Source: Flectonema sp. DT1601
Taxonomy: Eukaryota
Assembly (NCBI GenBank): GCA_964019425.1
Contig: OZ025802.1
Span: forward strand, 434,001 to 498,000
DNA: 64,000 nt
Reading direction: 5' to 3'
The notes below the pieces were generated by a model, which searched no databases, was not told where the DNA came from, and worked only from the letters and a program-made list of their open reading frames with translations. Below are positions 1 through 48,293 of this stretch, one piece after another (within the stretch, counting starts at the first letter, position 1; every line of letters begins with the position of its first letter). Position numbers and translations under genes: made by a program.

Positions 1-3000
1 AGACGAGCCAGCACAGGAAGTGGGACAACCCGAGGAAAAAGAGCACCCACCCCCCGACCCCCCGTCGAAGGAGGAGAAGCTGTATGCGGTGGCGGTGGGA
101 TGGAAACCGGGAGTGTATGCATCGTGGGAGGAGGCGAAGGCACAGACGGAAGGGTGCCCGAATGCGACACACCAGAGTTTCTCCTCCAGGAAGGAGGCGG
201 ACAGGTTTGTAGAGAGGTGGCAGCCGGAGACCAGGGAACCGACCCGGGCCACGGAGGGAGTCAGCCCACGTAAGTGGTACGCAGTGGCGAGGGGCAGGGC
301 GGTAGGCCTGTTCCAATGCTGGAACGAGGCGAACTCGATGGTGTCAGGCTACGCGGCGGCGAGACACAAGAGTTTCGCAAGCAAGGGGGAGGCGGAGGGA
401 TACCTCCGAACCCACCTGCTGGGGGAGGTGGTGGGGGAAGTAGGGACGAGGTACACCTTGGTGTACGCGTGCGAGGTAGACCCGGTAACGGGCCGTCTGG
501 GGGCGGCGGCGAGCTGGCTGGACACACACCGGTTCGAGGTGTTGGGCACATGGTCAGCTGGCCTGCCAGCGGGAGACACACACGGGGGGCGATACTTCGC
601 AGCCCTGGTGGGGCTGGTAGCGGCCAAGGCGTGTGGAGGCCTCGTCCCAGCGGAGGCATCCCTGCTGCTGCGAGGAAGCACGACACACTGGTCGACGGAC
701 CAGAGAGAGGTGCTGGAGGAGGCGGATTTGATGGGGAGGCGTACGACGCTGGTGGAGATGCCAGAGGGGATGAGAACACACGCGACGGAGGAGGCGGAAA
801 AAGCGGCGAAAGAGGGCTCGACCTCAGTGACGGAAGCCGTGATGAAGGTTTTCACAGAGGGGGCAACGAACTGCCTGGGACACGGGACACGGACGGGGAG
901 TCCCTTCACGGTGCGGTGGGAGGGAAGACAACTGCGTCTGGAACCCCGGTACACGGAAGGGGGGACGGGATCGTCAGGCGGCCGAGAGTCGGTGGAAGGA
1001 GAAGACGCGAGGGTGGAGGGCCGAGACGAGCAGAGCCCGGTCCCAACCCCGAAGGGGGCCGTACAAAGGGTAGAGGCGGGAGTCCTGGAGTTGAGCTCGG
1101 AAGGGTCGGAGGGAGATGACGATAGATCATCCTCCCCAGCGACAGGGCAGGACGAAGGGAACGGTTCCATGTCGGGAGGCTCCTTGGGGAGTCCAGGGAC
1201 GTCGGACATGGAAGCGGAAGAACAGACGGACGAAAGGGACCAGTCCGTAGACCCGTCGGCAGCAGAAACCTCAGGCGAAAACCATCACCTGGCCGAGGAC
1301 CTGCAAGCCGAGAATGGGGACGAGCTGGACGAGACGTCCCATCACTCAGGAGAGCCACCGTCGTCAGACGGCATGGACGGAGTGGAGGGGTTGAAGGACC
1401 TGGAAGACTCACAGTCGGAGATGGAAGTCGACGGAGAAAATGTGACGGAAGGGTCAGTAGTCCAGTACGTCGAGGAGACGTCAGAGGACGTGGTCCAGGT
1501 GGCAGAGTCGGACACAGAGGAGGAGGGATCGTCAGACTCCCAAATGACCATGACGGTCGATGAACAGGAATGGGAAGAGGGAGCGGCGCCTGAGGGGAAC
1601 GCAGGTCAGATGGCCTGGATGCTGGGACTACACCCAGAAGGGGGGAACGCGGAAACACGACGGGAGGGCCAGTCGGAGCCCCTTTCAAAGCTGGTGAACT
1701 CAGGCGAAACAAAACCAATGGCCGAGAGATCCAGTTTGGGGGCGAAGATGGGACCACGCGCAGTGGGTAGTGACGGGAGCGGGGAAGACGCAGAGAGATC
1801 GCCGGGCACGGTGTCAACACCGAGCACGAGAGGGAGGACGAAGTACAGAAAGGGAATGGAGGAGGAGAGGGAGGAGTGTGTGTCGCCGAAGACAAATACG
1901 GGAAGGGGACGCACGAGAGGCCGGAAGGCAAAGACGGGGGCAAAGGGGGCCGGAAAGGAGGACCCAAGTCCGCAGGTGTTGCAGGCGGAAATGGGAGAGT
2001 CCACCCCGAGCTCAGGTGAACGGCAGGCGAGGAGGAGGTACAGGAAGGGAGAAGAGAGGGAGAGGATAGAGGTTCTCTCCCCAGACCCGAGCAGGAAAGC
2101 GAAGAGGAAGAGACGCAAGCAGAAGGAACCGGAGCCAGTGGAGGGCACCACGAGGGAACAGGCGCCGCGGAGTTACAACAGGAAACCCACACTGCGTCGG
2201 GTAGGTAAGGGAGACTCACCCGACACAATGGGGTACGCACACGGGCCCCCGGGCTCCCTGACCTCGTTCACGGACGCGGGCGTACGCCCGGAGCCGGCGG
2301 AGCGAGACGGACAAGGTGTGGCAGGAGTAGAGTTGGTCACAAGGTCGTCGTCACAGAGTGAGAAAAGCACCCAAGGAGAGATGAGGGAGAGAGAAGGGGA
2401 TCCAACACGAAGGGTCCTGGACTTCTCGTCGAAAGGGGGAAGGCGCTAGGGACTCCACGAAGGAGGTCTCAAGAGTCGAGGAAAAGACAGAGCCAAGACC
2501 CCAGAGCCAACCCAAAACACATGGTAGAGGACGAGGGAGAACAAGAGCGGGAGCGAGGTTAGAAACGTGACCAAAGCCCCCGCGAAGCAGGAGACACAAC
2601 CTGCAACCAGACCCCCCCCCAAAAAAAAAACCCCGGTCAACGAGGCAAACTCGGACCAAAACATGCTTTTCACCCCCCCCAGGAAACACCGACCAGTGGA
2701 GCCAAAGGCCACACACATATTATAAAAATCAAAGGCCGCCCCCCAACCCAAGAAAAGGATGAAAAACTTTCAAGCGAAAAAACTTGACGTCCGTACGCCC
2801 CAGAGATCAAAGGACGGACGACTCACACCCCCTTCTTTCGCCCCATTTTATTTACTGGTACAGCGACAAATGTAAAGCTGGGTAGACGACGAATTATCTT
2901 TTGTGCACAGAGACAAGGGATCCATGAGAACAAAGGATCAAGAGAAGAAGGGCACATTCCCCATCCCAAACCCAGAAACATGAGAACTCATTAAATTGAA

Positions 3001-3178
3001 GGGTCATGTCTTTTCAAGTCGAAAAATGCTTAAATGCTGAAGAAGACTGTCGTCCCCAGCTCGCGGGTTTTCCCTGTCGCTGTATGTCGAGACAACGATC
3101 AGAGTCAGTAGAAAGATTGTACTAATTAACAGTATAATGAAAAAGGACAAAGAGAGTAGTTTCCATTTTATCTTCCCG

Positions 3179-3231
<53 letters not shown>
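1..3231 (+). mobile_element. 3' part of a GC/purine-rich poly(A)-tailed retroelement or retrocopy
   Basis: Composition sharply different from the AT-rich host DNA; intronless ORF, about 730 nt 3' UTR, 53-nt A run at 3179-3231. No RT domain inside the window. Confidence 0.55.
2..2449 (+). CDS. 5'-partial ORF: two RNase H1 N-terminal hybrid-binding (Cauli_VI-like) domains, a degenerate RNase H fold, then acidic and basic low-complexity tail; probably retroelement-encoded
   Basis: Frame open from the window edge. KLYAVAVGWKPGVYASWEEAKAQTEGCPNATHQSFSSRKEA (77-211) and KWYAVARGRAVGLFQCWNEANSMVSGYAAARHKSFASKGEA (272-406) fit the HBD consensus. 449-817 resembles RNase H strands/helices without the catalytic acids. 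Confidence 0.75.
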   Translation, partial: DEPAQEVGQPEEKEHPPPDPPSKEEKLYAVAVGWKPGVYASWEEAKAQTEGCPNATHQSFSSRKEADRFVERWQPETREPTRATEGVSPRKWYAVARGRAVGLFQCWNEANSMVSGYAAARHKSFASKGEAEGYLRTHLLGEVVGEVGTRYTLVYACEVDPVTGRLGAAASWLDTHRFEVLGTWSAGLPAGDTHGGRYFAALVGLVAAKACGGLVPAEASLLLRGSTTHWSTDQREVLEEADLMGRRTTLVEMPEGMRTHATEEAEKAAKEGSTSVTEAVMKVFTEGATNCLGHGTRTGSPFTVRWEGRQLRLEPRYTEGGTGSSGGRESVEGEDARVEGRDEQSPVPTPKGAVQRVEAGVLELSSEGSEGDDDRSSSPATGQDEGNGSMSGGSLGSPGTSDMEAEEQTDERDQSVDPSAAETSGENHHLAEDLQAENGDELDETSHHSGEPPSSDGMDGVEGLKDLEDSQSEMEVDGENVTEGSVVQYVEETSEDVVQVAESDTEEEGSSDSQMTMTVDEQEWEEGAAPEGNAGQMAWMLGLHPEGGNAETRREGQSEPLSKLVNSGETKPMAERSSLGAKMGPRAVGSDGSGEDAERSPGTVSTPSTRGRTKYRKGMEEEREECVSPKTNTGRGRTRGRKAKTGAKGAGKEDPSPQVLQAEMGESTPSSGERQARRRYRKGEERERIEVLSPDPSRKAKRKRRKQKEPEPVEGTTREQAPRSYNRKPTLRRVGKGDSPDTMGYAHGPPGSLTSFTDAGVRPEPAERDGQGVAGVELVTRSSSQSEKSTQGEMREREGDPTRRVLDFSSKGGRR

Positions 3232-3234
<3 letters not shown>

Positions 3235-3517
3235 TTATTTATTATTAAATAAAAAAAAATGATGGTAGGAATGGTAACCGAATTAGCTTCATGTGTCCAA
3301 TTTCAAGGACGCGTGACCACTTATTTTTCCGTTGCCGCTCTTCTTACGTCCTCAGGCGGAGCCTACCTATGTTTCCCGTGTTTTCCAATTTGTCAGACTT
3401 AAATCAAAAGAAAGTATAAAAGAAAGACAAAACAAAGAAGTGAAAAGAACAAAAACAAAGAGTCTGGAAGCACAGACGAGTGTAACCAAAAAAAGAAAAA
3501 AAAAATAAAAAATTACA

Positions 3518-3589
3518 TCCGCTGTAGTATAGTGGTTAGAACACCTGGCCCTCACCCAGGAAACCGGGGTTCAATTCCCCGCAGCGGAA
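3518..3589 (+). tRNA. tRNA-Glu(CTC), copy 1
   Basis: 72-nt cloverleaf: acceptor TCCGCTG/CAGCGGA, anticodon stem CCTGG/CCAGG, loop CC-CTC-AC, T arm CGGGG-TTCAATT-CCCCG; T5 terminator follows. Confidence 0.95.
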
Positions 3590-3614
3590 TATTTTTGCTT
3601 CAGACATTGTCTAT

Positions 3615-4390
3615 TCGTATTCGGAGGTCCTAGTTTACGTTTTGTCGGTCTTGACAAATTGTTCCAAGAACTTCGCAAGTAGTTGGTTCTCGTCAAACTC
3701 AGAAAAATGGAGTTCATTGGACACATCCTGAGTAAGCTTGGGCCCGACGTACTATGCCTTCAGGAGACTTCTTGCAGGATGGCATTGTTCCATTGGAACT
3801 ACGTTTGCTACAGGAGGGATAAGGAAGGGGAGGAGGCCTGATCACGTTAATAAGAAGAATTCAACATGATTGCTTTGATATCTCCATACTGTCGATGAGA
3901 GGAACTGTTGAGTCGATGGGGGTCAGAATTAACGAAGACGTAAGTATTCTCAACATCTCGACTTCCCACCGAGCTCGAGGATTAATTTTAAACTATTCTC
4001 CCTGAAACGTGTGGAAGTTCATACTCGCTGGTGACTTCAACGCACACTACTGGTCCAAGAAAACCGACGTAAAAGGCTGTGACCTTCGGATCAAAGGGAA
4101 GAGAAGAAGAATGTGGAACGCTTCGACGTAAAATTCACATTGTTCGAGATGGTGCGACAATTCCAACTGATTACATTCAGTTTGCAATCTCCTATTCGGT
4201 CCTGGGTTTCGTTCAACGTCCCCTGCTATCAACAAGAGACGTCTTCGAGTCTCAGCCCAGCTTCCATCTACGTGCCGTCATTTTCCAAGAATCTCGTCAT
4301 CAGCATCTCGAAACTATCCATCCTTCGTTCTATCGTACCTGTTCAGCCGTCGACTTCTTCACAGTTTTCTTCTCAATCTTCACATTGTCG
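3615..4390 (-). pseudogene. Rearranged relic of LINE family A: ORF1 end, 2A peptide, APE domain; internal inversion ~3701-4141 and deletions
   Basis: 3615-3700 nearly identical to 7447-7534; 3935-4087 is the reverse complement of ~8095-8250; minus strand reads LLLIAGDVERNPGP then (frameshift) KLNVISWNCRTISN; plus strand continues KMEFIGHILSKLGPDVLCLQET. Confidence 0.85.
4197..4247 (-). other. 2A-like ribosome-skipping peptide RRRLLLIAGDVERNPGP
   Basis: Exact D-V-E-x-N-P-G-P motif preceded by LLLxxG, immediately upstream of the APE start, as in L1Tc. Confidence 0.85.
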
Positions 4391-4753
4391 AAATAATATA
4401 AAATATTTTTTATGACCGACCTACTCAAGAGAAGAGATGAAAAACTTTTATTTATTTATTTATTTATTTAGTCACATCCCCCCTGTCTTTCTACTTTGTT
4501 TTTATTCTTTCTGAGCATACTCGCTCTTCTTATTTTTTAACTAATTAAATAAGCAACAACGAGTGCAACTGTTGTGAGTCCGTTGGAGGACTTCCCCGGA
4601 TAGGAAGCTCACGACACTGTAAGTACAAAGCGAATGATCAATACGGAGACGGTGGCCAAAGACCACTGGGTTACCTGCGAGCTATGAAGCTCTACGGATG
4701 TCCTCAGAGAGTTATTAGGAGATGAATTAGGAGTGATGTATGAGTATGATATA

Positions 4754-7700
4754 CTAAAAAGATAGTAACTTCTGATAACAGCTTGTTGCCGTCCATTGTT
4801 CTAAATGCCATATGAAGCCAGCGAGGGAATGTAAGTTCCTCGTAGCGAACATAAATAGCAGGCTGTGTTCCTTCTTTGAAATCTTCGCTTCTTCCATGAC
4901 AGATCCAATTGTTCCATTTCTGATGCGTACCAGAGCAGAGTTCATGCAGTTAAACATCAAGTGTCTAGGTGATGAGTCCGTCCGTCTACAAAAAGGGCAC
5001 TTCAGTTGTACGCCTTTGTCTCTCAGCAAGGGGTGTGAACCCGTTCTGAATTGTGCAATTCTTACTTCCGAAGCTCTCAGCATGTCTTTCGGATATCTAG
5101 CAGTTCTCAATCCTCCGGTCGCCTCCAGATACTGTCTGAGCATCACCCGTTTCATTGGAGGCTTTGCCTTCTCGGAGGCTTCCATCATCTTTCCTATCAA
5201 CTTCCTGTGAGACTCCCTCGCTACCCTTGATTTGTGGGCGAAGAAATCCATGGTCGTTGAGACCGGTTTTCTTTCGGCATCCTTCGAGACTTCTTTGGCC
5301 AGCTTATCAGCCTTATCGTGTGGTTCAATCCCCACATGGGCCGGGATAAACTGGAGATGCACCTGTGTCTTCAGATCCCTAATGCTTTCCAGTATTAACA
5401 GAGAGTTCAACTTCCTCTGGGCAACAATCCCTCCATTGAGTTCCTCCAGGTTGGATCTCGAGTCACTGAAGATTCTGGTAATACCTGACCTGGGACCCAA
5501 GATCGAGTCAGCTTTGCCAATTTCTCTCATCAGCAGTTTGAGTGTTACTTGTTCAGCCTTGTAGCTGCTTTCAGTAGCTACAAGTCTTGACGACATCGTT
5601 CTCTCAGTTGGTGAGACCTGTACTGCTGCCGCACCCGCAGTGTAGTTAACAGGATCATGTGAGCCGTCCACATATATAGCCGAGTTGCAAGGGACTAGGT
5701 CCCTGCAGTATTCCTCAAATTTGTTCCTGTCCACATCTGCATCACCGGTCTTGTTATGACCATACCCACAGGATATCTCTAGATTTGGTACATCCGCCCA
5801 GGGTTCGATGCTGTCAGGTTGAACTATTCCTTGGAGGGCGATGTTACAATCTTCCTGCGGCAACTTAGAACTCCAGAATCCTTTCGCTATTCGGTTCGTC
5901 GAACGTACCCACTTCAGCGATCGATACCTAAACAGAGCAGTTCTGGCCTGTTTTTCTATTATCAACTTCATCGGGAGCATGTTCGCCTCCAAGAGCAGTG
6001 GGAGAGACCTGGTGTAGATGCTGCAACCCGTTATCCTTCTCGCAATCTTCTTCAGATTCAAGTCCACAAGATCAATCTGACCCTCAGATAGGAAAGGACC
6101 GAAGCTCTCCAGCCCATATGACAGCCTTGAAAGTATGTACAGGTTCTTGACCATGCACAGCGTCTTAAAATCAAAATCATACTGTTCTAGTTTCCCCAGG
6201 AGTGCAAGACCCTTCCTGGTCTCATCCAGCATCTTTCCGACCTGTGTTCCATAAGATAAATCACCATCAATGTGCACCCCCAGGTATTTAACGCTGTCTA
6301 CCATCGGCATCAGTACTGCGGTTAACAACTTTACTCTCAGCTTACTTGATCCATCAGGGAAAATTGCAAGCAGGTCCTTCGTATTAGCAACTTCGGTATC
6401 ATCCACCTTGAGAATGGTTTCTCCACTCCCCAGAATTGGCCTTCCAAACTCGTTCGGTCTGATCATCTTAGCCAGATCTCCCCTGCTTACAACGTAATAA
6501 TTATCCTTTGCAGTCCTGGGGAAGCCCAGTCTCCAGTAGATATCCTTTGGGCAGCGCACAGGCATACCACATGTCTTAGAGACGGACAGTGCCATATCAT
6601 TGGTTTTGCACCAGCTATCCACAAGTCCAAGGATCCATTGCGCTTTCTTATTGGTTAAATTAACGTCCTTATCAGAGACTACACAAGCGGTGTCATCTGC
6701 ATAAAGAGCCGAAACTGAGCCAGTCTTCTCCAACAACTTTGCCAGGTCATCAACATAAATCAGGTATAGCAGCGGACCGATAATCGATCCTTGGGGAACC
6801 CCCCTCGTTACCGTTCTGTAGGAGCTAAGGTTGCCATTCGCACTCACCCTTGCCTGCCTGCCCTTCAGGAAGTCAACTACCCATGCAATGAACGGGGAGG
6901 GAATACGCATGTTCTTCATCTTCTTGATCAGTTTCTCATGATTAATTCTATCAAATGCTTCCGTGAAGTCGAACGACAGCAGAACAGAGCTCTTGTTCTT
7001 TTCACTGGCCTCATGAAGAGCGTTGACTAACATTGAAATCTGCTCACACGTATTCCTTCCTCTTCTAAAACCCGCCTGGATAGACGACAGGGCATTGTTC
7101 TGGGTAAGCCAATACATCAACCTATCATAAATCACTCTTTCAAGTACTTTACCCACCACCGAGGTCAACGTGATCGGTCTGAAACTTGCGATCTTATCTT
7201 TTGGCTTACCTGGTTTGTAAACTGGCTTGATAAGACCCTCCTTCCAGATCCTCGGTACCTTTGACGTTAGCCACGATTCATTGAATAACGCCAGGAGGAA
7301 ATCCATTCCTATCACCGATAAGTTCTTCAACATTATCCCATGGATTCCATCTGGACCTGGTGCTTTCCCGGGCCTTACCTTCTTGATGGCTCGCTTCAGT
7401 TCAGTCATTGTTAGATTCCCTCCGATTTTGGCGAAGTCGCTGCTCTTCGTATTCGGAGGTCCTAGTTTACGTTTTGTCGGGGTCTTAACAAATTGTTCCA
7501 AGAACTTCGCAGGTAGTTGGTTCTCGTCAAACTCCGGAATGTGAATTTCACGTCCTTCATCCGTCTCAAGGTCCTTTATCTTTTTGAACGCATATGCAAA
7601 GCCTTCACCTTTTGCTAGCCGTTCAGCGATAAATTTTCCCTTCGCACGCTTGGTATCTGGGGTGGAAGCGTTCCACATTCTTCTTCTCTTCCCTTTGATC

Positions 7701-8250
7701 CGAAGCCTTCTTCTAACGTACCTCTTCGCTACTCCAAGAACGATTCTGTTGAACGTTACTGCTCTTCTCCCAACGCTCGCAGAGTTGTTTACCTTTCCAA
7801 ACCTGTAGTCTAGTTCATGTTCATATGAGTACCAATCAGCTGTATTGAAGTCCCAGACCGATCTCTTCGTCGCGTGGTTGCCCGAAGGCTCAAGGGGTGA
7901 GAGCGTATCGAAGGTAGCAGAGAGTGGTGTATGATCCGAACCGTGCTCAATTCCTTCACCTACCAGCTCAAAGTTAAGCAGTTGAATCTCCTCGTGGTGC
8001 AGGATCAGATCGGGCGAGGTCCCATGTCTCGGCAGTGTCGCTAGACCTGGCGGGTTCGCAATCAGGAGGTCCTCTTGCCCTGTCCAGTTGAGAAGGTCAC
8101 AGCCTTTTACGTCGGTTTTCTTGGACCAGTACCTATGGTGTGCGTTGAAGTCACCAGCGAGAATGAACTTGCCAACACGTTTCAGGGAGAATAGTTCAAA
8201 ATTAATCCTCGAGCTCGGTGGGGAGTAGATGTTGAGAATACTTACGTCTT
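4754..8250 (-). CDS. Element A ORF2 (5'-truncated): AP endonuclease, reverse transcriptase, RNase H, CCHC finger
   Basis: YSPP, GDFNAHH, GSDH (APE); KAPGPDGI, RPITLTS, GVPQGS, YADD, KYLGV (RT); YVDGS, KAE, SDS, PAHVG..HDKAD (RNase H); CPFC..HLMFNC. The track's MMHSKKKK start is an artefact of B's 3' end and poly(A). Confidence 0.93.
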
Positions 8251-8522
8251 TTTTTTTTTTTTTTTTTTTTGAGTGCATCACGACCCGTGAGTCTGTGATG
8301 CTGATTGCGCTGTTAGGCGCGGTTGTTCTTTTTCTTTCTTTCTTTCTTACTTTCTTTGTTTTGGGGGTTGGGGGTGGGAATCCCGTAGGCTTCGTATCTC
8401 CTTTCTTTGTTTTGATAACTTAAAACTAATACTACATAATTAATTGTCCACTTGGACGACTTCAGATGTGTTGCAATGATGCCTTCAATGTTGATATTCG
8501 AAATGTCGATGTTTTAATAATA

Positions 8523-11500
8523 CTACCGTCCTAATAGTTGTGCCAGTCTGTCTAAGGTTGTGACAAAACCAGTCATCTGCTGTTGATTCGCAGGTAAGTA
8601 GCAGTCCTCCAGCTGGCATGCTTCCTCTCCCTTGTCATTCATCATGTGACTGATGTATTTTTCCCTCAAGGTTTCTATACACCAATGTTCGCATATAAAT
8701 AATACATGATGTGCTGTCGCCTTTCCAAGTTTACAGAAAAAGCACAGCTCGTTCAGTCCTTTGATTATCAGAGATCTGCAATGTCCCACTCTAAAGCGTG
8801 ACATCAGTACTTCCTCTGGTCGTGTTAGAGCTTCGATGTACGGAGGGTGTCTTACCTCTCCCGGTCCGATCCAGTTCTCCCGTTTTCTCCGCTTGTGAAA
8901 CGTCATCAATGTTCCCATGTCAAGTTGAGTGGGCAGTTGTTTAATAATAACATCTTCGTGAGGTGGATCTTCCTTCAGGCCTGCAGCGAATTTCGCCAGT
9001 TGGTCCGCTACTTCGTTGTACCGCACGTTTCTGTGTGCCGGTACATACTGCATGTTGACTTGGATTCCCTTCTTCTCCAGTTTCATTGCCAACTTCCAGA
9101 TCTTTTTGTTCATTGGGGACCTTTGTTTATATGGCCCTTGTTCCAATGCCTGCATGACTGACATCGAATCAGTCAACAGGTGCGTCGTTGTTGTTAGAGA
9201 TTCATGTTCATCCTCCGCCACCTGAACTAAATTTTCCAACGCCAGTTTTACTGCAATCTGCTCGGTCCTATAAGAGGAACCCGCTACTGGTATTTTATAT
9301 CCAAGTAGACGCATCTTGCTTTCTTTTACTATGACCACAGCGGCAGCCGAGTCTGTCATGTAAGTCTCGGATTTGTGTCTTATCGACCCGTCAGTGTAGA
9401 CTTTCATCTCGTGAGTTGGTAGTTCAGCTTCTCGCTGTTCAGCCTCTTCCTTGTTACTTGAATATGTGAATCTCATCGCACTAGTACTTTTCCATGGAGG
9501 GAGAGTGTAGTGTTCTGGGTTCACTTCCAGGTTGGTAATGCTCCGGTAGTTGTCAAGTCCAGGGACACCAGAGACATAGTCTATCCAGACATTCCATCCC
9601 CATTTTGATTTTTGGTATAATTCTGAACTCCCTGTTCTCGTCAGCTTGCGAGTCGGTAAGAACGGACTCAATTTGAAACGTTCGTAAGTTCTACACATCT
9701 TATACTGGATGTGTTCCTTTAGTCTTGGCGTATCGGCTTCTTTGTAAAGTCTCTGTAGTTTGGTGCTCCGCAGACATCCAGTTACCAGCCTCACTGCCCT
9801 GTTTACCAGTAATTCCAGTTGTTCGAAGCACTCTTTTGGTAACATCCAAGCAAAGCTTTCAACACCATAAAGCACCCTTGCTAACACCACCGTCACCAGT
9901 ATACTAATGAGTGTCCTCTTTCTGCAGCCTATCCTAGTGAGTCTAACCAACAAGCCTAGACCCTTGGAAGCAGCTGTCATCATCTTTTGAATTTGCGACT
10001 TAAAGGTTAACTTCTCGTCATAATGTACACCCAGGTACCGCACGGTATTCGTCTTGTGAACTTTTCGTCCAACCGCATAGGCAAATCCGTGTAGTCCGGG
10101 CCCCACTCTTTCCAGCATCTTATCTATTTCTGCCTTGTTGTGGACTTTCTTCAGTTGTGGGAAGCGGGCACTCATCTTCATTGTTTTCAGTACCGCCGGT
10201 TTGTTCGGTAGCTTGACTTTGATCTTATGTTTTGGAACGACGTACAGGTGAGTGATGGCGAATTCTTCTTTTGAAACTACAGTTGTTGAGTTATCATCCT
10301 TCACAAGGTTACTCATTTGTTCTGCCGTGGCCACCACATATTTAAATGTGTGTTCCTCCGAGTATACCACTACTGGGGACTTGTCGTGAGTTCCACTTGG
10401 CCTCACGTGAATGTATTCCGTCTTGCCAGGGTTCTTATTGATTTTGATGTGTGAGTCAAGTGCCCACCTTTCAAATATTTTGACTGCGTTGTTAACCTTG
10501 TTTTCTAAACAGCTGACAGTGCCTGCGGTTATTACTATTCCAACATCATCTGCAAAGACAGTCGGTTCGTACATCTCTAGTTTATCTATCAAATCGTTTA
10601 TGAAGATAGAGAATAACTGGGGTCCCAGCACGCTTCCTTGTGGTACTCCTACTCGAATGTTCCGGAATGCTCCCTTCACTCCATTCACCCTTGTTGAAAT
10701 CTTCCTACTAGTCAAGTAGTTTTGAACCCACCGTAGATATTTCGTTGATAGTCCTATTTTGGACATCTTATTTAGAAGAGTTACCGGTTGAACTGCATCG
10801 AAGGCTTTTTGTAGGTCGAAGGTGATTAATATCGCTTCTTCTCCCATTGCCTTGGCACTTTTGAGTTTGTCTGTAACTATACAGAGATTTTCAATGGAAT
10901 CCCGTCCTCGTTTGTAGGCTGCTTGCCTCGGATTCATTCTGTCTTTCAACAGGTGGTGCATCCGTTCTACGACCATTCTTTCAAAGAGTTTCGAGACGGT
11001 CGAGGTTAGTGCTATCGGTCTGTACGATAAGACTTGTTTCTTGTCTTTATCAGGTTTCAGTATGGGTATTACCATTCCACTTTTCCAGCACCTGGGTACT
11101 GCTGATCGTTGCCATGAGAGGTTGAATAGTCTTAGTAGTTGCTCGAGGAAAGCTTTTGGAAGTTGTTTTAACATCGAGTTCCAGATGTGGTCAGGTCCAG
11201 GTGCCTTCTTCTCCTTTGTTTTTGAAATTTGTCGTTCCAGTTCAGGCATTCCAAATTCCACCGAGTTGTCATCAGGTATTCCTTGTAAGGTTGGTTCACC
11301 ATCTTCGAATTTGAATTGGTCTGCGTATGTTTTGGTGAAGACATCTGCCATCTCCCGCGAGTCGGTTAATTCCTTCTCACCGTCGACAATCTTAGTAATT
11401 GAATGGTCCATCATTCTACCTTCCAGTTGTTTAACTTTTCTAAAGGCCCATCGGTAGTCCATTCCAGTCATGTCGCACTCAATGATCTTCTGTTTGATCA

Positions 11501-12440
11501 TGTTGATACCTCTTTCAATTGCTTCTGAGTCTGTCTTATCAGGGTCAGTCTCTGCCATTAAATCTTCCAATTCTGAATCCCTCACAGCGAAGGTACTACT
11601 TGACTTTTTGTTGTAGCCTGGGATGGCCCTACTCGCTGCTCTCAGAATCTCGTTGTTGATCCTATTAGCAAGTTTCTGCACATTCTTAATTCTTTCTAAT
11701 TTGGGCGCTGCCCTTTCCAACAATATTTTATAATAATTCCAATCGGCACAATGCCACTTCCATTTCCATGTCCCAGAACTCTCTTTTGAATATTCATCTG
11801 TTTTGATATCTTCGATTGTCAGTTTGAGTGGCAGGTGATCGCTGCCCCATCCCTTCATGAGTTCGATTTGTGCATCTATTGAAATATCTAATGCAATTAC
11901 ATCCGGAGAAGCTGAGCTTTGTGGTCTTGTGTGTTGTTGAGGTTTATTTAGAATTTTAATTGTTGCTTCTAGTGACCAATCGTAGAAGCTGTTACCAGTG
12001 GTGTTCGTATTACCATTTGACCAAGTTGAATGGTGTCCATTAATGTCACCCGCAATCAATGTGCCGGGCTCTGATATAAACTTCCAGGTTGTTGCCTTGA
12101 TTTCAGGCGGGTGGTAAACATTGTGAATTGTCAATGGCGGATTAGATTGAAGTACTACTGTTAATATCTCAGTTTGGTCATGTGAGATGTCGGGGTGTTT
12201 TAATATTAACTTATTTAAATCATTTCTGACCAGAGTGACGAGTCCTCGATGACCTGACTTGATGGTGCTGTCTCTCCTGTGGATTGAATATCCTTCAATA
12301 GCGAAGTGTTTTTCTTTTGATAACCACGTTTCCTGCAGTAGTACTACTTCAGGCTTTTCTTCTTTCAGTGCCCAGTTCAATCGAAAGTAATTTTCTGGTT
12401 TCAGAACTGAGCGAATGTTATTTGACCAAATCACAATCAT
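8523..12440 (-). CDS. Element B ORF2, intact 1305 aa: AP endonuclease, reverse transcriptase, RNase H, CCHC finger
   Basis: SNNIRS, LQETW, YHPP, GDINGH, GSDH; KAPGPD, YRPIALTS, GVPQGS, FADD, RYLGV; YTDGS, RTE, TDS, PAH..NEVAD; CFFC..HVLFIC. Confidence 0.95.
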   Translation of the reverse strand: MIVIWSNNIRSVLKPENYFRLNWALKEEKPEVVLLQETWLSKEKHFAIEGYSIHRRDSTIKSGHRGLVTLVRNDLNKLILKHPDISHDQTEILTVVLQSNPPLTIHNVYHPPEIKATTWKFISEPGTLIAGDINGHHSTWSNGNTNTTGNSFYDWSLEATIKILNKPQQHTRPQSSASPDVIALDISIDAQIELMKGWGSDHLPLKLTIEDIKTDEYSKESSGTWKWKWHCADWNYYKILLERAAPKLERIKNVQKLANRINNEILRAASRAIPGYNKKSSSTFAVRDSELEDLMAETDPDKTDSEAIERGINMIKQKIIECDMTGMDYRWAFRKVKQLEGRMMDHSITKIVDGEKELTDSREMADVFTKTYADQFKFEDGEPTLQGIPDDNSVEFGMPELERQISKTKEKKAPGPDHIWNSMLKQLPKAFLEQLLRLFNLSWQRSAVPRCWKSGMVIPILKPDKDKKQVLSYRPIALTSTVSKLFERMVVERMHHLLKDRMNPRQAAYKRGRDSIENLCIVTDKLKSAKAMGEEAILITFDLQKAFDAVQPVTLLNKMSKIGLSTKYLRWVQNYLTSRKISTRVNGVKGAFRNIRVGVPQGSVLGPQLFSIFINDLIDKLEMYEPTVFADDVGIVITAGTVSCLENKVNNAVKIFERWALDSHIKINKNPGKTEYIHVRPSGTHDKSPVVVYSEEHTFKYVVATAEQMSNLVKDDNSTTVVSKEEFAITHLYVVPKHKIKVKLPNKPAVLKTMKMSARFPQLKKVHNKAEIDKMLERVGPGLHGFAYAVGRKVHKTNTVRYLGVHYDEKLTFKSQIQKMMTAASKGLGLLVRLTRIGCRKRTLISILVTVVLARVLYGVESFAWMLPKECFEQLELLVNRAVRLVTGCLRSTKLQRLYKEADTPRLKEHIQYKMCRTYERFKLSPFLPTRKLTRTGSSELYQKSKWGWNVWIDYVSGVPGLDNYRSITNLEVNPEHYTLPPWKSTSAMRFTYSSNKEEAEQREAELPTHEMKVYTDGSIRHKSETYMTDSAAAVVIVKESKMRLLGYKIPVAGSSYRTEQIAVKLALENLVQVAEDEHESLTTTTHLLTDSMSVMQALEQGPYKQRSPMNKKIWKLAMKLEKKGIQVNMQYVPAHRNVRYNEVADQLAKFAAGLKEDPPHEDVIIKQLPTQLDMGTLMTFHKRRKRENWIGPGEVRHPPYIEALTRPEEVLMSRFRVGHCRSLIIKGLNELCFFCKLGKATAHHVLFICEHWCIETLREKYISHMMNDKGEEACQLEDCYLPANQQQMTGFVTTLDRLAQLLGR

Positions 12441-12661
12441 GATTGGCCAGTGTTGTTCCTGTTGGTCGCACTTGTAGTAATCTTGTTCATACCAAGATTG
12501 TTCTCAATCCTCTTGACAGCTTCTATTAGCGAAGTGATGGCTGTCGCCATGTTGTTGTTGGCTGCTTCGTTCTTTTTCGTAGTTTGCACCAGGGTTTCTA
12601 CAATCCCGGTTATCTGTGCCATGCCTTCATCAAGTCGAACTTGCATGTCCTTCACTTCTTT
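12437..12661 (-). CDS. Element B ORF1 C-terminal fragment (coiled-coil-like)
   Basis: Open to the element 5' junction; its TGA overlaps the ORF2 ATG (ATGA, 12437-12440). Confidence 0.65.
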   Translation of the reverse strand, partial: KEVKDMQVRLDEGMAQITGIVETLVQTTKKNEAANNNMATAITSLIEAVKRIENNLGMNKITTSATNRNNTGQS

Positions 12662-12737
12662 CTGTCTTCGTTAATTCTGACACCCATCGACTCGACGGTT
12701 CCTCTCATCGAATAAATAAAACTTTTTTTGCATTACA

Positions 12738-12809
12738 TCCGCTGTAGTATAGTGGTTAGAACACCTGGCCCTCACCCAGGAAACCGGGGTTCAATTCCCC
12801 GCAGCGGAA
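12738..12809 (+). tRNA. tRNA-Glu(CTC), copy 2
   Basis: Identical to copy 1; T6 terminator. Confidence 0.95.
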
Positions 12810-12934
12810 TTTTTTACATAAGTCGGTAATCCAAATTAATCCATGAAGCCTTGGGCATTTCCCCCCTTTGGGGTGTTTTTTTTTTTTGACAGACCTACTC
12901 AAGAGAAGAGATGAAAAACTTTTTTTGCATTACA

Positions 12935-13006
12935 TCCGCTGTAGTATAGTGGTTAGAACACCTGGCCCTCACCCAGGAAACCGGGGTTCAATTCCCCGCA
13001 GCGGAA
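12935..13006 (+). tRNA. tRNA-Glu(CTC), copy 3
   Basis: Identical to copy 1; uninterrupted 5' flank; T6 terminator. Confidence 0.95.
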
Positions 13007-32700: not shown

Positions 32701-35700
32701 GTCAGATACCGCCTTTATAATATAATGAGTGTGTCCATCCTTTATTGGAAGGGTCAGGTTTATTTCTACTTTTTGTAAATCTTTCTCGTCGAGATTGTAC
32801 CTCGGGTCATTAACTTGCTTTGCTGTTACTAAAATGAACTCTTTGTGGTGGATCTTCATTCCTGTTGTTGGGTTGTTAGGAGAGTCGTAACTTTTTTTTT
32901 TATTTACAAATTAATAAAATGATAACAACATTAACATACCAGAACTATCCTCAACAAAGACATGGAATGGTTGAGAGTTACCATGGTGTTTGCTAGACCA
33001 CCTGAAGTAGAACAACAGCTCTACTTTAACTCTAATAATGGTCGCTGTAATTGGAGCAACTTCGTGTCTAATTTCAATCCAAGGAAACAACTGTACTAAC
33101 TCCTTAATGATTGGAGCGTATTTATAATTACGAATGAGAGCACCGATACTCTTCACGTCTTGTGATTGGAGTCGTGCGATGGTACACTTTTGATCTTCGA
33201 GTCTTCCACAAACAGTTCCAGGGATGTCACCGAATTGAATTATTTCAGGTTGAGAATACCAGGCACGTCTTTCAATCATCTTTGCGAGTTCCAGTAAGAC
33301 AGCGACGGATCTGTTTGTTGGTTTAAATTTTATTATTAAATCAAAAAAAGGTTAACACGAATAATATCTTAATCATACCTTGGACAACTTCTATACACAG
33401 CGATATCAAGAAGTGCTCTACAGATACGAGCAGCATTGTCAGCAACGTACTGCATATCGTTAGATAAAGAGAATGAGTATGGTGAATACTTTCCTATCCA
33501 TGCTTGAATTAGTGTTCTTGTTTTTACTTCTGAAGTAGACATGTCTTGGTCATCACCTGCAAGTAGACGACATTGTTCTTTCATAGACTTCGATTCAAGG
33601 ATACAATAGTTACCTCTAATGTCAGTTAGTTCTTGTGCTTCATCTTCTCTAACTTGTATTTGATCGAACTCTGAAGCCTTCGCAATTAGAGCCAACGCAT
33701 CACCGTGATCAACAATTGTTCTTCCATCTTCAAGTCTAAGAAAACCTTCTTCAAACCATCTCTTAATCGTCTCGTATTCAACGTAAAAGTGAGCAGCTAC
33801 TCTACCGAAGTGAGTTGCTCCATAGTTTTGTACTGTCGCTTCCTCATCAACGCGAACCATTCCTGTTTTGTAATAGTTTAAGTTGTGGTTTAGTTATAAA
33901 ACTAGAACTGACTTAACTAAAATAGAATAATTAACAATACCTGCTTCATCCAATAGATCGGTAGCAGCCTTGATCATCTTAAAACATGTGTTGCGAAGTT
34001 GAGGATCTTTCGCAAGTTGTTTTGGTGTAATTCCATAAGCTTGTGGATTCTTAACCATACGAACATTTAAGTAAGTAAATTTAAACCAGTTGTAGGCTTC
34101 TTCAGCTGATGTGATGGTGCCGAGAACGATCTCAGCGTTCAAGTGATCGACGAGTTTCGATTGAAGTTTACTTTCAATTGGAACTGCGTGTGACATACTG
34201 TGAACGTAATGAGGAAGTTTCTCATGAGATGTCAGAATAATACCAGTTCCAGATGTATCAAATTGAGGACGACCAGCACGACCGAAGATTTGCATCACAT
34301 CAAGAATAGAAATATCAGTCCAACCTCCCTTTGATGCATTGTAGACCTGTTGTTGATTTAATGAGTAGTGTTCTTTCTCACATAATAAATATAAATAATA
34401 AACATACCTGTGTACCGTGAATTACAACGGTGTGAGCTGGCAAGTTAACACCCCAGGCAAGTGTTGCTGTAGAGACCAAGACTTTAATATGACCGTCTGA
34501 AAACATTTGTTCAGCAAGTCTTCTAGCGTGTTTTAATAACCCAGCGTGGTGAATACCTAACGAAGATGGGAACAGATCTTGAAGCTGTTGACATTTACTG
34601 TTGTGGACCTGCTTGAAGGCGCGACCAGGTACCTTGTCTTGAGCGAATAAGTGCAACTTATTAGATTTCTGAGCTTCTTCTCTTAACATGCAGGCGACTT
34701 TGTAAGTCTTTGCTCTACTGTGACAGAAGACCATGCACTGCTTACCATTTTCTAAGGCTTCGCATATTTTGTCAAAACAGATCTTGTCGTAGAGCCATGT
34801 CTGGTCTCTGCTCTTAATCTCTTTCTCTGATTCATCGTTCTGTTTTTTTTTTTTTTTTTGTTATTTTACAATTCAATTCGAATTAAAGAGAGATAATTTT
34901 TATAATAATACGACATACCTTTTTAACTGTCGTCTTTATGTTACGAGACTTCTCTTTTACTCCGATGAATGTCTGTTTGAGAGGGACAGGACGGTAGGCG
35001 CTGTCGAATACGTAGAGTCCGCTGACGCGACTGGCTCCAATAAAGTCGCTGACATCTCTGTAGTTGGGAAGGGTGGCAGATAGTCCAACAATTCTAATCT
35101 GTCGTTGAGTTAGTTCTTGTTCTCGAAGCATTCTAGCGACTAGTACTTCGATGACTGGACCTCTGTCTTCATTCAGAAGATGAATCTCATCAAAGATAAG
35201 AAGGTTTGTCTTATCAACTAATGCTTCAGTCTTCTTTCTGGTTATAACATCCCACTTCTCAGGTGTTGTTATTATCAAATGTGATTCAGCCATTTCTCTT
35301 TTTGTTAATTGAGCGTCACCAGTACACTCCTTCACAACCATATTGTAAGGAGCGAGTTTCTTTGTGAAGTTGGTAACCATCTCTTGAGCGAGTGCTTTCA
35401 TTGGACAGATGTAAATCATTTTAAACTCTTCTTTCATTAAAGTTCCCTCAGGAGTTACATGTTTTGAGATCTCGTGAAGCATCGTCAGAAGAGCGCAAAC
35501 AGTTTTACCAGCACCAGTAGGGGCAGATATCAACATGTTCTCACCACTGTGGAAGGCGGTGTTAAAAACTTTACTTTGAACCTGATTGAGATGTGTTATT
35601 TGAGTTCCAAATGCGAGTTGTGCCCAAACTGGAAGATCAACAACAGCTACCAGGTCACGTTTTGCTACTTCCGGACGAGATGCCATCGGAACATCAATCT

Positions 35701-40343: not shown

Positions 40344-40465
40344 TTAGCAAGCCCAGAACTGATGACTGCTGGGGGTCTGGATAACCCGCACCAGTAGAGG
40401 ACGCAATCAGGGGATAGTGTTTTTATAGCTTTGGCTAGAAAGATCAATTCCCAGCTGTCCGCCTT
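40344..40465. repeat. Structured dispersed repeat, copy 1 (diverged, partial)
   Basis: AACTGATGACT..GGGGGTCTGG..CCCGCACCAGT..GATC..CCCAGCT similar to 40475-40610 and 48141-48293. Confidence 0.7.
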
Positions 40466-40474
40466 AGTTAGTAG

Positions 40475-40610
40475 AGCAAAATACAGAACTGATGTCTAAG
40501 GGTTTGGGTAGCCCGCATCAGTAAGTACCCAATCGTTTTATAGCTTCGGTTGGTAGTGATCGACTCCCAGCTCCCACCTTGCCCAGAGGCTAACAGGTTG
40601 AAAACAACTA
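40475..40610. repeat. Structured dispersed repeat, copy 2
   Basis: Shares GCCCGCATCAGTAAG.ACCCAATCG and CCACCTTGCCCAGAGGCTAACAGGTTG with 48141-48293. Confidence 0.85.
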
Positions 40611-48140: not shown

Positions 48141-48293
48141 TTAGCAAAATACAAACTGATGACTACGAGGGGGTCTGGGAAGCCCGCATCAGTAAGGACC
48201 CAATCGCGAAGATTGTAGTTTCGTAGTATCGGCTGGAAGTGATCGACTTCCAGCCTCCACCTTGCCCAGAGGCTAACAGGTTGTAAACAACTA
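48141..48293. repeat. Structured dispersed repeat, copy 3 (best preserved, abuts T run 48127-48142)
   Basis: Matches 40475-40610; perfect hairpin GGCTGGAAGT/ACTTCCAGCC at 48231-48255. Confidence 0.85.

What the first reader, a model, noticed from the sequence alone, without database searches (positions are those of the whole stretch)
3518..13006. Candidate tRNA-gene-targeted LINE system: three insertions stacked upstream of one tRNA-Glu gene, all head-to-head with it
Seen: the intact flank of tRNA copy 3 (GACCTACTCAAGAGAAGAGATGAAAAACTTTTTTTGCATTACA-tRNA) is split at copy 2, left half at ~4418-4449 and right half at 12718-12737, with TSD AAAACTTTT. So A sits 12-20 bp upstream of the tRNA. B then landed ~70 bp upstream, and the relic's 5' end maps ~60-70 bp upstream once A and B are removed. 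All three are on the minus strand with 5' ends facing the tRNA. No LINE ORF occurs in the other 50 kb. Known: Dictyostelium TRE5 LINEs and yeast Ty3/Ty1 target Pol III genes; trypanosomatid Ingi/L1Tc are not known for this. Inference: an independently evolved Pol III-gene-targeting, RNase H-bearing LINE lineage.
Basis: partly seen in the sequence, partly recalled or inferred. Interest (0 to 1): 0.9.

Follow-up and report, generated by a model that had tools for sequence, protein, structure and literature searches.

The report
Diplonemid LINEs stacked upstream of tRNA
Three jumping-gene (LINE) insertions from two distant families sit within about 75 bases upstream of one tRNA gene in what is likely a diplonemid (a marine relative of trypanosomes), which likely reflects a preference for landing just upstream of tRNA genes, so far described for LINEs mainly in social amoebae, though one locus cannot prove it.

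Summary
The local anatomy is real. Three identical tRNA-Glu(CTC) genes close off a 50-kb one-strand gene cluster in a likely diplonemid (closest LINE relatives: Flectonema neradi). Element A (2A-APE-RT-RNase H-like, Ingi-related) split the tRNA flank with a 9-bp duplication 12-20 bp upstream. Element B (ORF1 + APE-RT-RNase H, 25% identical to A) then landed inside A's 54-bp 5' stub, 70-74 bp upstream, although about 4.7 kb of LINE DNA was available. An older, rearranged A-family copy ends 55-70 bp upstream. Corrections: these are two lineages, not one; half of the relic is inverted; two further A-tailed repeats upstream of tRNA copy 1 point the other way; and the empty 50 kb is uninformative (about 0.4 copies expected). 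RNase H-bearing LINEs that land upstream of tRNA genes are already described in dictyostelids (NLTR-A/B). No genome or flanked copy was available, so genome-wide targeting is untested. Best reading (0.55): a real preference for tRNA-upstream sites. Main rival (0.33): T-run-primed LINEs piling up in the neutral gap at a gene-cluster end. New variant of a known kind if confirmed; my searches found no such report for Euglenozoa.

The parts
3518..3589 (+). tRNA-Glu(CTC) copy 1; shares only 6 bp of upstream flank with copies 2 and 3
3611..3716 (-). Relic (A family), 3'-most surviving piece, matches A 7443-7550 (97/106); the rest of its 3' part, its tail and its TSD are gone
3706..4127 (+). Relic, inverted block: start of the APE domain, frameshifted, with an internal deletion
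   Evidence: un-inverted join 3706/4140 in one X1 contig
4128..4400 (-). Relic, 5' piece: 2A-like motif (GDVERNPGP) just before the APE start; 5' junction approximate (4390-4405), about 55-70 bp upstream of tRNA copy 2 before A and B arrived
4406..4449 (.). Left half of the original upstream flank of tRNA copy 2, ending in the left copy of A's target-site duplication (4441-4449)
4450..8250 (-). Element A, main part: (TAAA)n tail 4450-4469, 3' UTR, ORF ending at 4754 with APE, RT, RNase H-like and CCHC regions; intact from the truncation point on
8251..12664 (-). Element B: poly(A) tail 8251-8270, 3' UTR, ORF2 12440-8523 (APE, RT, RNase H, CCHC), and the last ~75 codons of an upstream ORF1 whose stop overlaps the ORF2 start; 5'-truncated; TSD GTCTT (8246-8250 / 12664-12668)
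   Evidence: B continues past 12664 in an X1 contig
12664..12717 (-). Element A, 5' stub left between B and the tRNA (A sequence to 12711, then a 6-7 nt AT-rich filler)
12718..12737 (.). Right copy of A's TSD (12718-12726) and the last 11 bp of the tRNA flank
12738..12809 (+). tRNA-Glu(CTC) copy 2, the gene next to all three insertions
12810..12934 (.). Unoccupied 125-bp spacer; serves as the empty-site reference, with T runs at about -9 to -15 and from -49 outwards
12935..13006 (+). tRNA-Glu(CTC) copy 3, facing the end of the minus-strand gene cluster that begins at 13206
3232..3511 (+). Repeat D: 3' end of another A-tailed repeat; its tail stops 6 bp upstream of tRNA copy 1 (tail towards the tRNA). 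A near-identical copy precedes an A-lineage ORF on another contig (P0157)
1..3231 (+). Repeat C: GC-rich element running off the window; 815-codon open frame with two RNase H1 N-terminal (Cauli_VI) domains, long 3' UTR, 53-nt poly(A) at 3179-3231; family not identified

Best explanation
Two Ingi-related LINE families, in what is likely a diplonemid genome, have inserted three times within about 75 bp upstream of one tRNA-Glu gene with their 5' ends facing it, likely because they prefer sites just upstream of active tRNA genes. Shown by sequence: the order relic, then A, then B; target-site duplications; 5' truncation; A-rich tails. Inferred from standard target-primed reverse transcription: the APE domain nicks the tRNA-sense strand at a T-ending site (inside the T7 run for A, after GTCTT for B), the T end pairs with the RNA's A-rich tail, and the copy ends up head-to-head with the tRNA. 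Each newcomer lands at its preferred distance and pushes older copies away, so B left only a 54-bp stub of A. Untested: what draws them there. Tethering to TFIIIB/TFIIIC as in TRE5-A (about 0.3 overall) or nucleosome-poor DNA at tRNA genes plus a T-run preference (about 0.25) would both give this picture.
For: (1) B chose a site 70-74 bp from the tRNA, on the head-to-head strand and not in a T run, out of a ~4.7-kb LINE-filled spacer: 13 of 740 TT sites. With A the joint chance is about 0.007 (T-run-aware) to 0.0006 (uniform), by my arithmetic. (2) Three events from two lineages 25% identical, plus repeat D's tail at -6 of copy 1. (3) The distances overlap known windows: DGLT-A 13-33, NLTR-B 39-64, TRE5 37-90 bp (PMC5006619 table passage; PMC5911963); TRE5 is also head-to-head. 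(4) In 112 other family members compared, 4 ORFs begin in another element's poly(A) tail in the same orientation, while 0 of 29 C-terminal run-ons begin with poly-Phe, the sign of an opposite-orientation nest. (5) One F. neradi A-lineage isoform (P0166) starts with KKSFI, the same five residues that A's target site and filler give here; found in only 1 stored protein (434,184 residues) and once in the window's six frames. (6) tRNA loci are open chromatin in T. cruzi (PMC9158160 passages).
Against: One locus only; no genome; no flanked close relative in metagenome (14 distant loci), viral (0, B lineage only) or prokaryote-genome contigs (21 distant loci, A lineage only). A and the relic are one family but differ in distance (12-20 vs about 55-70). 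A's site is unremarkable if it simply needs a T run (8 of 21), and the relic also abuts a T run. Repeats C and D face the other way. The poly(A)-to-ORF junctions of point (4) are equally explained by insertion into older poly(A) tails. Of 7 foreign N-terminal read-throughs only 1 could encode a tRNA T-arm, against 4 of 84 shuffles: not significant. The 120 listed members lie on 66 contigs with no more sharing between families than a ~59-Mb length-weighted null gives (54 vs 53 expected, low power). The 100-bp window was chosen after the fact.
Confidence: 0.55

Rival explanations
1. Ordinary Ingi-like LINEs that prime on T runs survive only where they do no harm, in the gaps between polycistronic gene clusters. 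tRNA genes sit at such cluster ends and their flanks carry T runs on one strand, which explains both the closeness and the orientation; B's position is luck.
For: The tRNAs lie just past the end of a 50-kb minus-strand cluster. D. papillatum clusters are separated by repeat regions rich in transposons (PMC10161547 abstract). Strand-switch regions have the highest retroposon density in T. brucei and L. major (PMC2323293 passage). A and the relic both use T runs. C and D lie in the other orientation. The families are abundant: 441 distinct ORF pieces in 8 clusters.
Against: B did not use a T run and ignored ~4.7 kb of neutral LINE DNA (0.018). A did not use the 53-nt poly(A) of repeat C nearby. 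126 A/T runs of 6 or more in the other 51 kb hold no LINE, though selection could account for that.
Confidence: 0.33
2. The A lineage recognises a short DNA sequence (A-run, C, T-run) rather than the tRNA gene, like other sequence-preferring LINEs; the motif happens to lie in this tRNA flank, and B prefers to insert into A-family DNA.
For: The KKSFI junction in F. neradi P0166 fits the same target letters (back-translation is ambiguous). L1Tc copies have been reported with one recurring 9-bp TSD (PMC5814959 passage). B-type tails precede A-lineage ORFs in P0129 and P0140.
Against: AAAACTTTT occurs at 3 other places in the gene cluster and at tRNA copy 3, all empty. The relic's junction lacks the motif. 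B-type tails join A ORFs at different positions (residues 543 and 869), so there is no fixed target in A.
Confidence: 0.09
3. The stack is an assembly artefact made of collapsed repeats.
For: No independent read or contig bridges the whole locus in the 4 runs laid.
Against: Two clean TSDs, a split flank matching the empty site at 53 of 55 bases, and a reading frame restored when B is removed are not what a misassembly produces.
Confidence: 0.03

Closest known systems
Dictyostelid NLTR-A (D. purpureum) and NLTR-B (P. pallidum)
   Same: Non-LTR elements with APE, RT and RNase H, found 2-6 bp and 39-64 bp upstream of tRNA genes; related families with different distances (PMC5006619 passages; PMC5911963).
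   Different: Amoebozoan hosts; not placed in known RNase H-bearing clades by their authors; no zinc finger, whereas A and B end in CCHC. Relationship to A and B not tested (no sequences at hand).
Dictyostelium TRE5
   Same: 5'-flank insertion, opposite to the tRNA's direction, about 44-54 bp (range 37-90); ORF1 binds TFIIIB.
   Different: L1-type, no RNase H. A appears to lack an ORF1 of the TRE5 kind and carries a 2A motif; here targeting is inferred from one locus.
Trypanosomatid Ingi / L1Tc / L1Tco
   Same: 2A-like motif directly before APE, then RT and RNase H (PMC3708506 passages; PMC5814959). A and B group with T. congolense and Angomonas elements in RT trees (FastTree 0.909; SH-aLRT 92).
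   Different: Only about 34-35% identical over the RT. B has a separate overlapping ORF1 and no 2A before APE. Ingi/RIME lie mainly in subtelomeres and strand-switch regions; I found no report of tRNA-gene targeting. No Pr77/HDV ribozyme hit, but all copies here are 5'-truncated.
Dewa (zebrafish) and other sequence-specific non-LTR elements
   Same: Insert in the spacer of tRNA tandem arrays (PMC3706591 passage).
   Different: These recognise a fixed sequence; here three different sites and two lineages are involved.
Yeast Ty3 and dictyostelid DGLT-A
   Same: [quoted passage not shown]
   Different: LTR elements with an integrase; DGLT-A inserts in either orientation.

Membership tests
APE-type non-LTR retrotransposon (LINE) | APE endonuclease and RT in one ORF | tested here: met
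   Pfam RVT_1 and Exo_endo_phos_2 above cut-off in A and B
APE-type non-LTR retrotransposon (LINE) | A-rich 3' tail, target-site duplication, 5' truncation | tested here: met
   A: (TAAA)n tail and 9-bp TSD; B: poly(A) and 4-5-bp TSD
Ingi clade | RT phylogeny with Ingi/L1Tc | tested here: inconclusive
   A and B group with T. congolense and Angomonas elements at moderate support (0.909; SH-aLRT 92 in a quick search). No labelled I, L1/TRE, Tx1, Vingi or NLTR references were in the tree.
Ingi clade | 2A-like peptide before APE, no separate ORF1 | tested here: inconclusive
   Met for the A lineage: 2A in the relic and in P0006, P0008, P0168; sequence further upstream is not held. Not met for B, which has an overlapping ORF1.
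Ingi clade | RNase H domain after RT | tested here: met
   B: PF00075 E 6.8e-13. A: no Pfam hit and a sub-threshold hit in P0144, but the D/E/D/H/D residues are invariant across A and B families.
Ingi clade (trypanosomatid members) | 5' Pr77 / HDV-like ribozyme | tested here: inconclusive
   No Rfam hit at E up to 5; true 5' ends are missing from the window
tRNA-gene-targeted retrotransposons (TRE5/NLTR type) | Most genomic copies within a narrow window upstream of Pol III genes | not testable with these tools
   No genome held; no flanked close relatives
tRNA-gene-targeted retrotransposons (TRE5/NLTR type) | Family-specific distance and orientation | tested here: inconclusive
   All three head-to-head, but the two A-family copies differ (12-20 vs about 55-70 bp)
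tRNA-gene-targeted retrotransposons (TRE5/NLTR type) | Dependence on B box / TFIIIB / TFIIIC | not testable with these tools
   Needs an integration assay or protein binding tests
TRE (L1-type) family itself | APE-RT-zinc finger without RNase H | tested here: not met
   RNase H present in B and, by conserved residues, in A; TRE layout

The most novel reading that the evidence does not exclude
A whole community of Ingi-related diplonemid LINEs (at least 8 active families in two lineages, shared with Flectonema) targets Pol III genes by binding the Pol III machinery, one lineage doing so without a TRE5-type ORF1. This would be an independent origin of tRNA-gene targeting in Discoba, used to colonise a polycistronic genome at its cluster ends.
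Probability: 0.3. Interest if true: 0.8.

Novelty: new variant of a known kind. Interest (0 to 1): 0.58.

Why it matters
Position-specific insertion of LINEs near tRNA genes is described from dictyostelids; my searches found no euglenozoan case. A case in a third eukaryotic supergroup, in Ingi-related elements whose trypanosome relatives are not reported to do this, would show the safe-haven strategy arising again under a different constraint: polycistronic gene clusters that leave little harmless space. It would give a natural comparison for finding the targeting determinant (single-ORF A vs two-ORF B), and young, intact families (members 97-100% identical) that could be tested as safe-site integration tools. 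If the rival is right, the locus is an ordinary retroposon pile at a cluster boundary.

Tried and rejected
No own genome was held. Sequencing runs: 7 listed, no RNA holder listed; 4 of 7 laid, all low-depth contigs covering mostly B, none bridging the locus; loose ends show only 30 letters, too few to see a tRNA 70 bp away. Searches for flanked relatives gave only distant elements (25-41% identity): 14 metagenome loci with the B alignment, 0 viral loci with B, 21 prokaryote-bin loci with the A alignment; A was not searched in metagenome or viral contigs. Short-fragment search: 6 proteins, none with a long foreign flank. Asking for other cluster members returned the same 15 per cluster, so only 120 of 441 members were seen. 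Exact look-ups of the window's two ORFs failed, but my start points were not the start codons, so this says nothing. Read-through peptides as tRNA: rejected (1 of 7 vs 4 of 84 shuffles). Clustering of families on contigs: no excess. D as a relative of B's, A's or C's 3' UTR: only an A-rich low-complexity match. The careful IQ-TREE search did not finish; the quick tree is quoted. Atlas and representative searches did not name repeat C, and a host-gene look-up gave only a gamma-tubulin-complex lead with no useful taxon. Four look-ups of earlier scan findings were empty. An 18-bp match between the copy 2-3 spacer and an A-lineage variant was left as possible chance.
Full report
Host and setting. 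No whole genome is held for this window. Of the long ORFs from 13.2 to 63.8 kb all but one 164-codon frame are on the minus strand; they include ordinary eukaryotic genes (a Brr2-like helicase, a polycystin channel, TPR and thioredoxin proteins). Five GT-AG introns of 68-79 nt fall at frame breaks of the helicase gene. The closest named relatives of both LINEs are transcripts of the diplonemid Flectonema neradi (A lineage 49-56%, B lineage 46-58% over the RT region). One-strand clusters with introns are the D. papillatum pattern (PMC10161547, abstract and passages). The host is therefore likely a diplonemid; I did not confirm this with a host-gene tree. The three tRNA-Glu(CTC) genes (identical) sit just past the 3' end of the cluster and face it.

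Anatomy. The 55 bp upstream of copy 3 match 4406-4449 plus 12727-12737 at 53 of 55 bases, and AAAACTTTT is duplicated at 4441-4449 and 12718-12726. Element A lies between these on the minus strand, with a (TAAA)n tail at 4450-4469 and an ORF with APE and RT hits. It is cut short inside the APE domain. Element B (8251-12664) interrupts A: GTCTT flanks it on both sides, removing it restores A's frame, and the relic carries the uninterrupted sequence. B has a poly(A) tail, an intact 1,305-codon APE-RT-RNase H ORF from 12440, and the end of an ORF1 whose stop overlaps that start; a contig of run X1 continues B's sequence past 12664, confirming truncation. A and B are only 25% identical. The relic (3611-4400) is an A-family copy (97/106, 187/194 and 43/44 identical blocks) with a 2A-like motif before the APE start. 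Its middle block, 3706-4127, is inverted; one X1 contig shows the un-inverted join. Its tail and TSD are lost, so only its 5' junction, about -55 to -70, can be placed. Order: relic, A (-20 to -12), B (-74 to -70).

Upstream of tRNA copy 1 lie two more A-tailed repeats on the plus strand. C (1-3231) has an 815-codon open frame with two Cauli_VI domains, close copies elsewhere (P0402 90%, P0420 98%) and a 53-nt poly(A). D (3232-3511) ends 6 bp from the tRNA and recurs in front of an A-lineage ORF on another contig (P0157). Both point tail-first at the tRNA. So the locus has five A-tailed or LINE-derived repeats in both orientations, though the three next to copy 2 are all head-to-head.

Is it more than chance? 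Before B arrived, about 4.7 kb of LINE DNA separated copies 1 and 2. Of 740 TT sites on both strands, 13 lie on the right strand in the last 100 bp (0.018). For A, in an 871-bp spacer, 8 of 21 TTTT sites qualify (0.38), or 0.057 under uniform sites. The products, 0.007 and 0.0006, are my arithmetic, and the 100-bp window is post hoc. B carries most of the weight. The absence of LINEs from the other 50 kb carries little: eight ENA clusters that appear to come from one assembly (shared contig lengths) hold 441 distinct ORF pieces; the 120 listed lie on 66 contigs totalling 29.6 Mb, and a null of about 59 Mb fits best, giving about 0.4 pieces per 50 kb.

Indirect genome-wide evidence. I compared 112 of the 441 ENA members and 3 F. 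neradi isoforms with family references. Four ENA ORFs (P0129, P0140, P0157, P0343) start in another element's 3' end and poly(A), in the same orientation; a fifth (P0173) is ambiguous. None of 29 C-terminal run-ons starts with poly-Phe, which an opposite-orientation nest of a poly(A)-tailed element would give. Head-to-tail stacking is thus recurrent, as repeated use of a fixed site predicts, but insertion into older poly(A) tails predicts it too. One F. neradi isoform (P0166) replaces the element's own start with a peptide containing KKSFI, which is what A's target site plus filler reads as here; it occurs in no other stored protein and once in the window's six frames. This hints at a shared target context, not at a tRNA. 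Read-throughs gave no significant tRNA signal (1 of 7 vs 4 of 84 shuffles), and families do not share contigs more than expected (54 vs 53).

Phylogeny. RT cores from 247 of 248 proteins tried gave a FastTree in which A (with four F. neradi families) and B (with four) are separate, fully supported lineages inside a 33-tip group with T. congolense and Angomonas elements (0.909). A 48-row IQ-TREE subset gave SH-aLRT 92 for a similar group, without two unnamed neighbours; the bootstrap search did not finish. No labelled I, L1/TRE, Tx1 or NLTR sequences were included. The 2A-before-APE layout is that of the Ingi clade, though 2A also occurs in five other clades (PMC3708506, abstract and passages). 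A is best called Ingi-like; B is a two-ORF relative.

Mechanism. Steps shown by sequence: separate insertions, TSDs, truncation, order. Inferred from general knowledge of target-primed reverse transcription: nicking of the tRNA-sense strand at T-ending sites and priming on the A-rich tail. Untested: the cause of the positional bias. I put 0.55 on a real preference for tRNA-upstream DNA (active tethering about 0.3, open chromatin plus T runs about 0.25), 0.33 on survival in a neutral cluster-end gap, 0.09 on a sequence target and 0.03 on misassembly. [quoted passage not shown] Against my reading: two copies of one family at different distances, and C and D in the other orientation.

Comparison with what is known. 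PMC5006619 (abstract, first 10,000 characters, passages and section 11) reports at least six origins of tRNA-gene targeting in dictyostelids, including two RNase H-bearing non-LTR elements, NLTR-A (2-6 bp) and NLTR-B (39-64 bp). PMC5911963 (passages and table) lists the known non-LTR cases as dictyostelid only. Dewa inserts in tRNA-array spacers (PMC3706591 passage). PMC5814959 (passages) names CZAR/SLACS and TcTREZO as the site-specific trypanosomatid elements and has no occurrence of 'tRNA'. Paper searches (listings and abstract starts) showed no report of tRNA-gene targeting by Ingi-related or diplonemid LINEs; the library lacks most subscription papers and Repbase. The bioRxiv preprint 10.64898/2026.07.29.740908 (passages) added nothing on this; its supplements were not seen. 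Seven supplementary files of PMC10161547 held as text had no relevant passage; its main PDF supplement may not have been among them.

Verdict. If a genome-wide map confirms it, this is a new, independent case in Discoba involving two LINE lineages. Interest 0.58; new variant of a known kind.

Noticed in passing
window 1-3231: GC-rich poly(A)-tailed repeat C with two RNase H1 N-terminal (Cauli_VI) domains and a long acidic low-complexity frame; close copies exist (P0402, P0420) and a distant relative (P0406); family unidentified.
   Followed up: partly
window 3232-3511: Repeat D, 3' end only, tail 6 bp upstream of tRNA copy 1 and directly behind C's poly(A); could be a fourth tRNA-proximal insertion in the opposite orientation.
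   Followed up: partly
window 12711-12717, 4390-4405, 3232-3260: The 5' junctions of A, the relic and D all carry short AT-rich filler sequence.
   Followed up: no
window 40357-40610 and 48143-48293: Two related intergenic ~150-250 bp elements (73-79% identical, internally repeated), possibly small guide RNAs; no Rfam hit at gathering score.
   Followed up: no
window 12819-12836: 18-bp exact match between the copy 2-3 spacer and an A-lineage variant contig of run X1; a tiny LINE remnant or chance.
   Followed up: no
window 32862-34918: Short GT-AG introns (68-79 nt) with A-rich, not pyrimidine-rich, 3' ends.
   Followed up: no
protein P0144: An A2-family ORF runs into what looks like a pogo/DDE transposase (my reading of the sequence, not searched).
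   Followed up: no
window 12440-12437: B's ORF1 stop overlaps the ORF2 start (ATGA), suggesting coupled translation, while the sister lineage A uses a 2A motif.
   Followed up: partly
protein P0323: Its 16-residue foreign start could encode a reversed tRNA T-arm directly at the junction, which would mean a B copy inside a tRNA gene; not significant against shuffles.
   Followed up: yes
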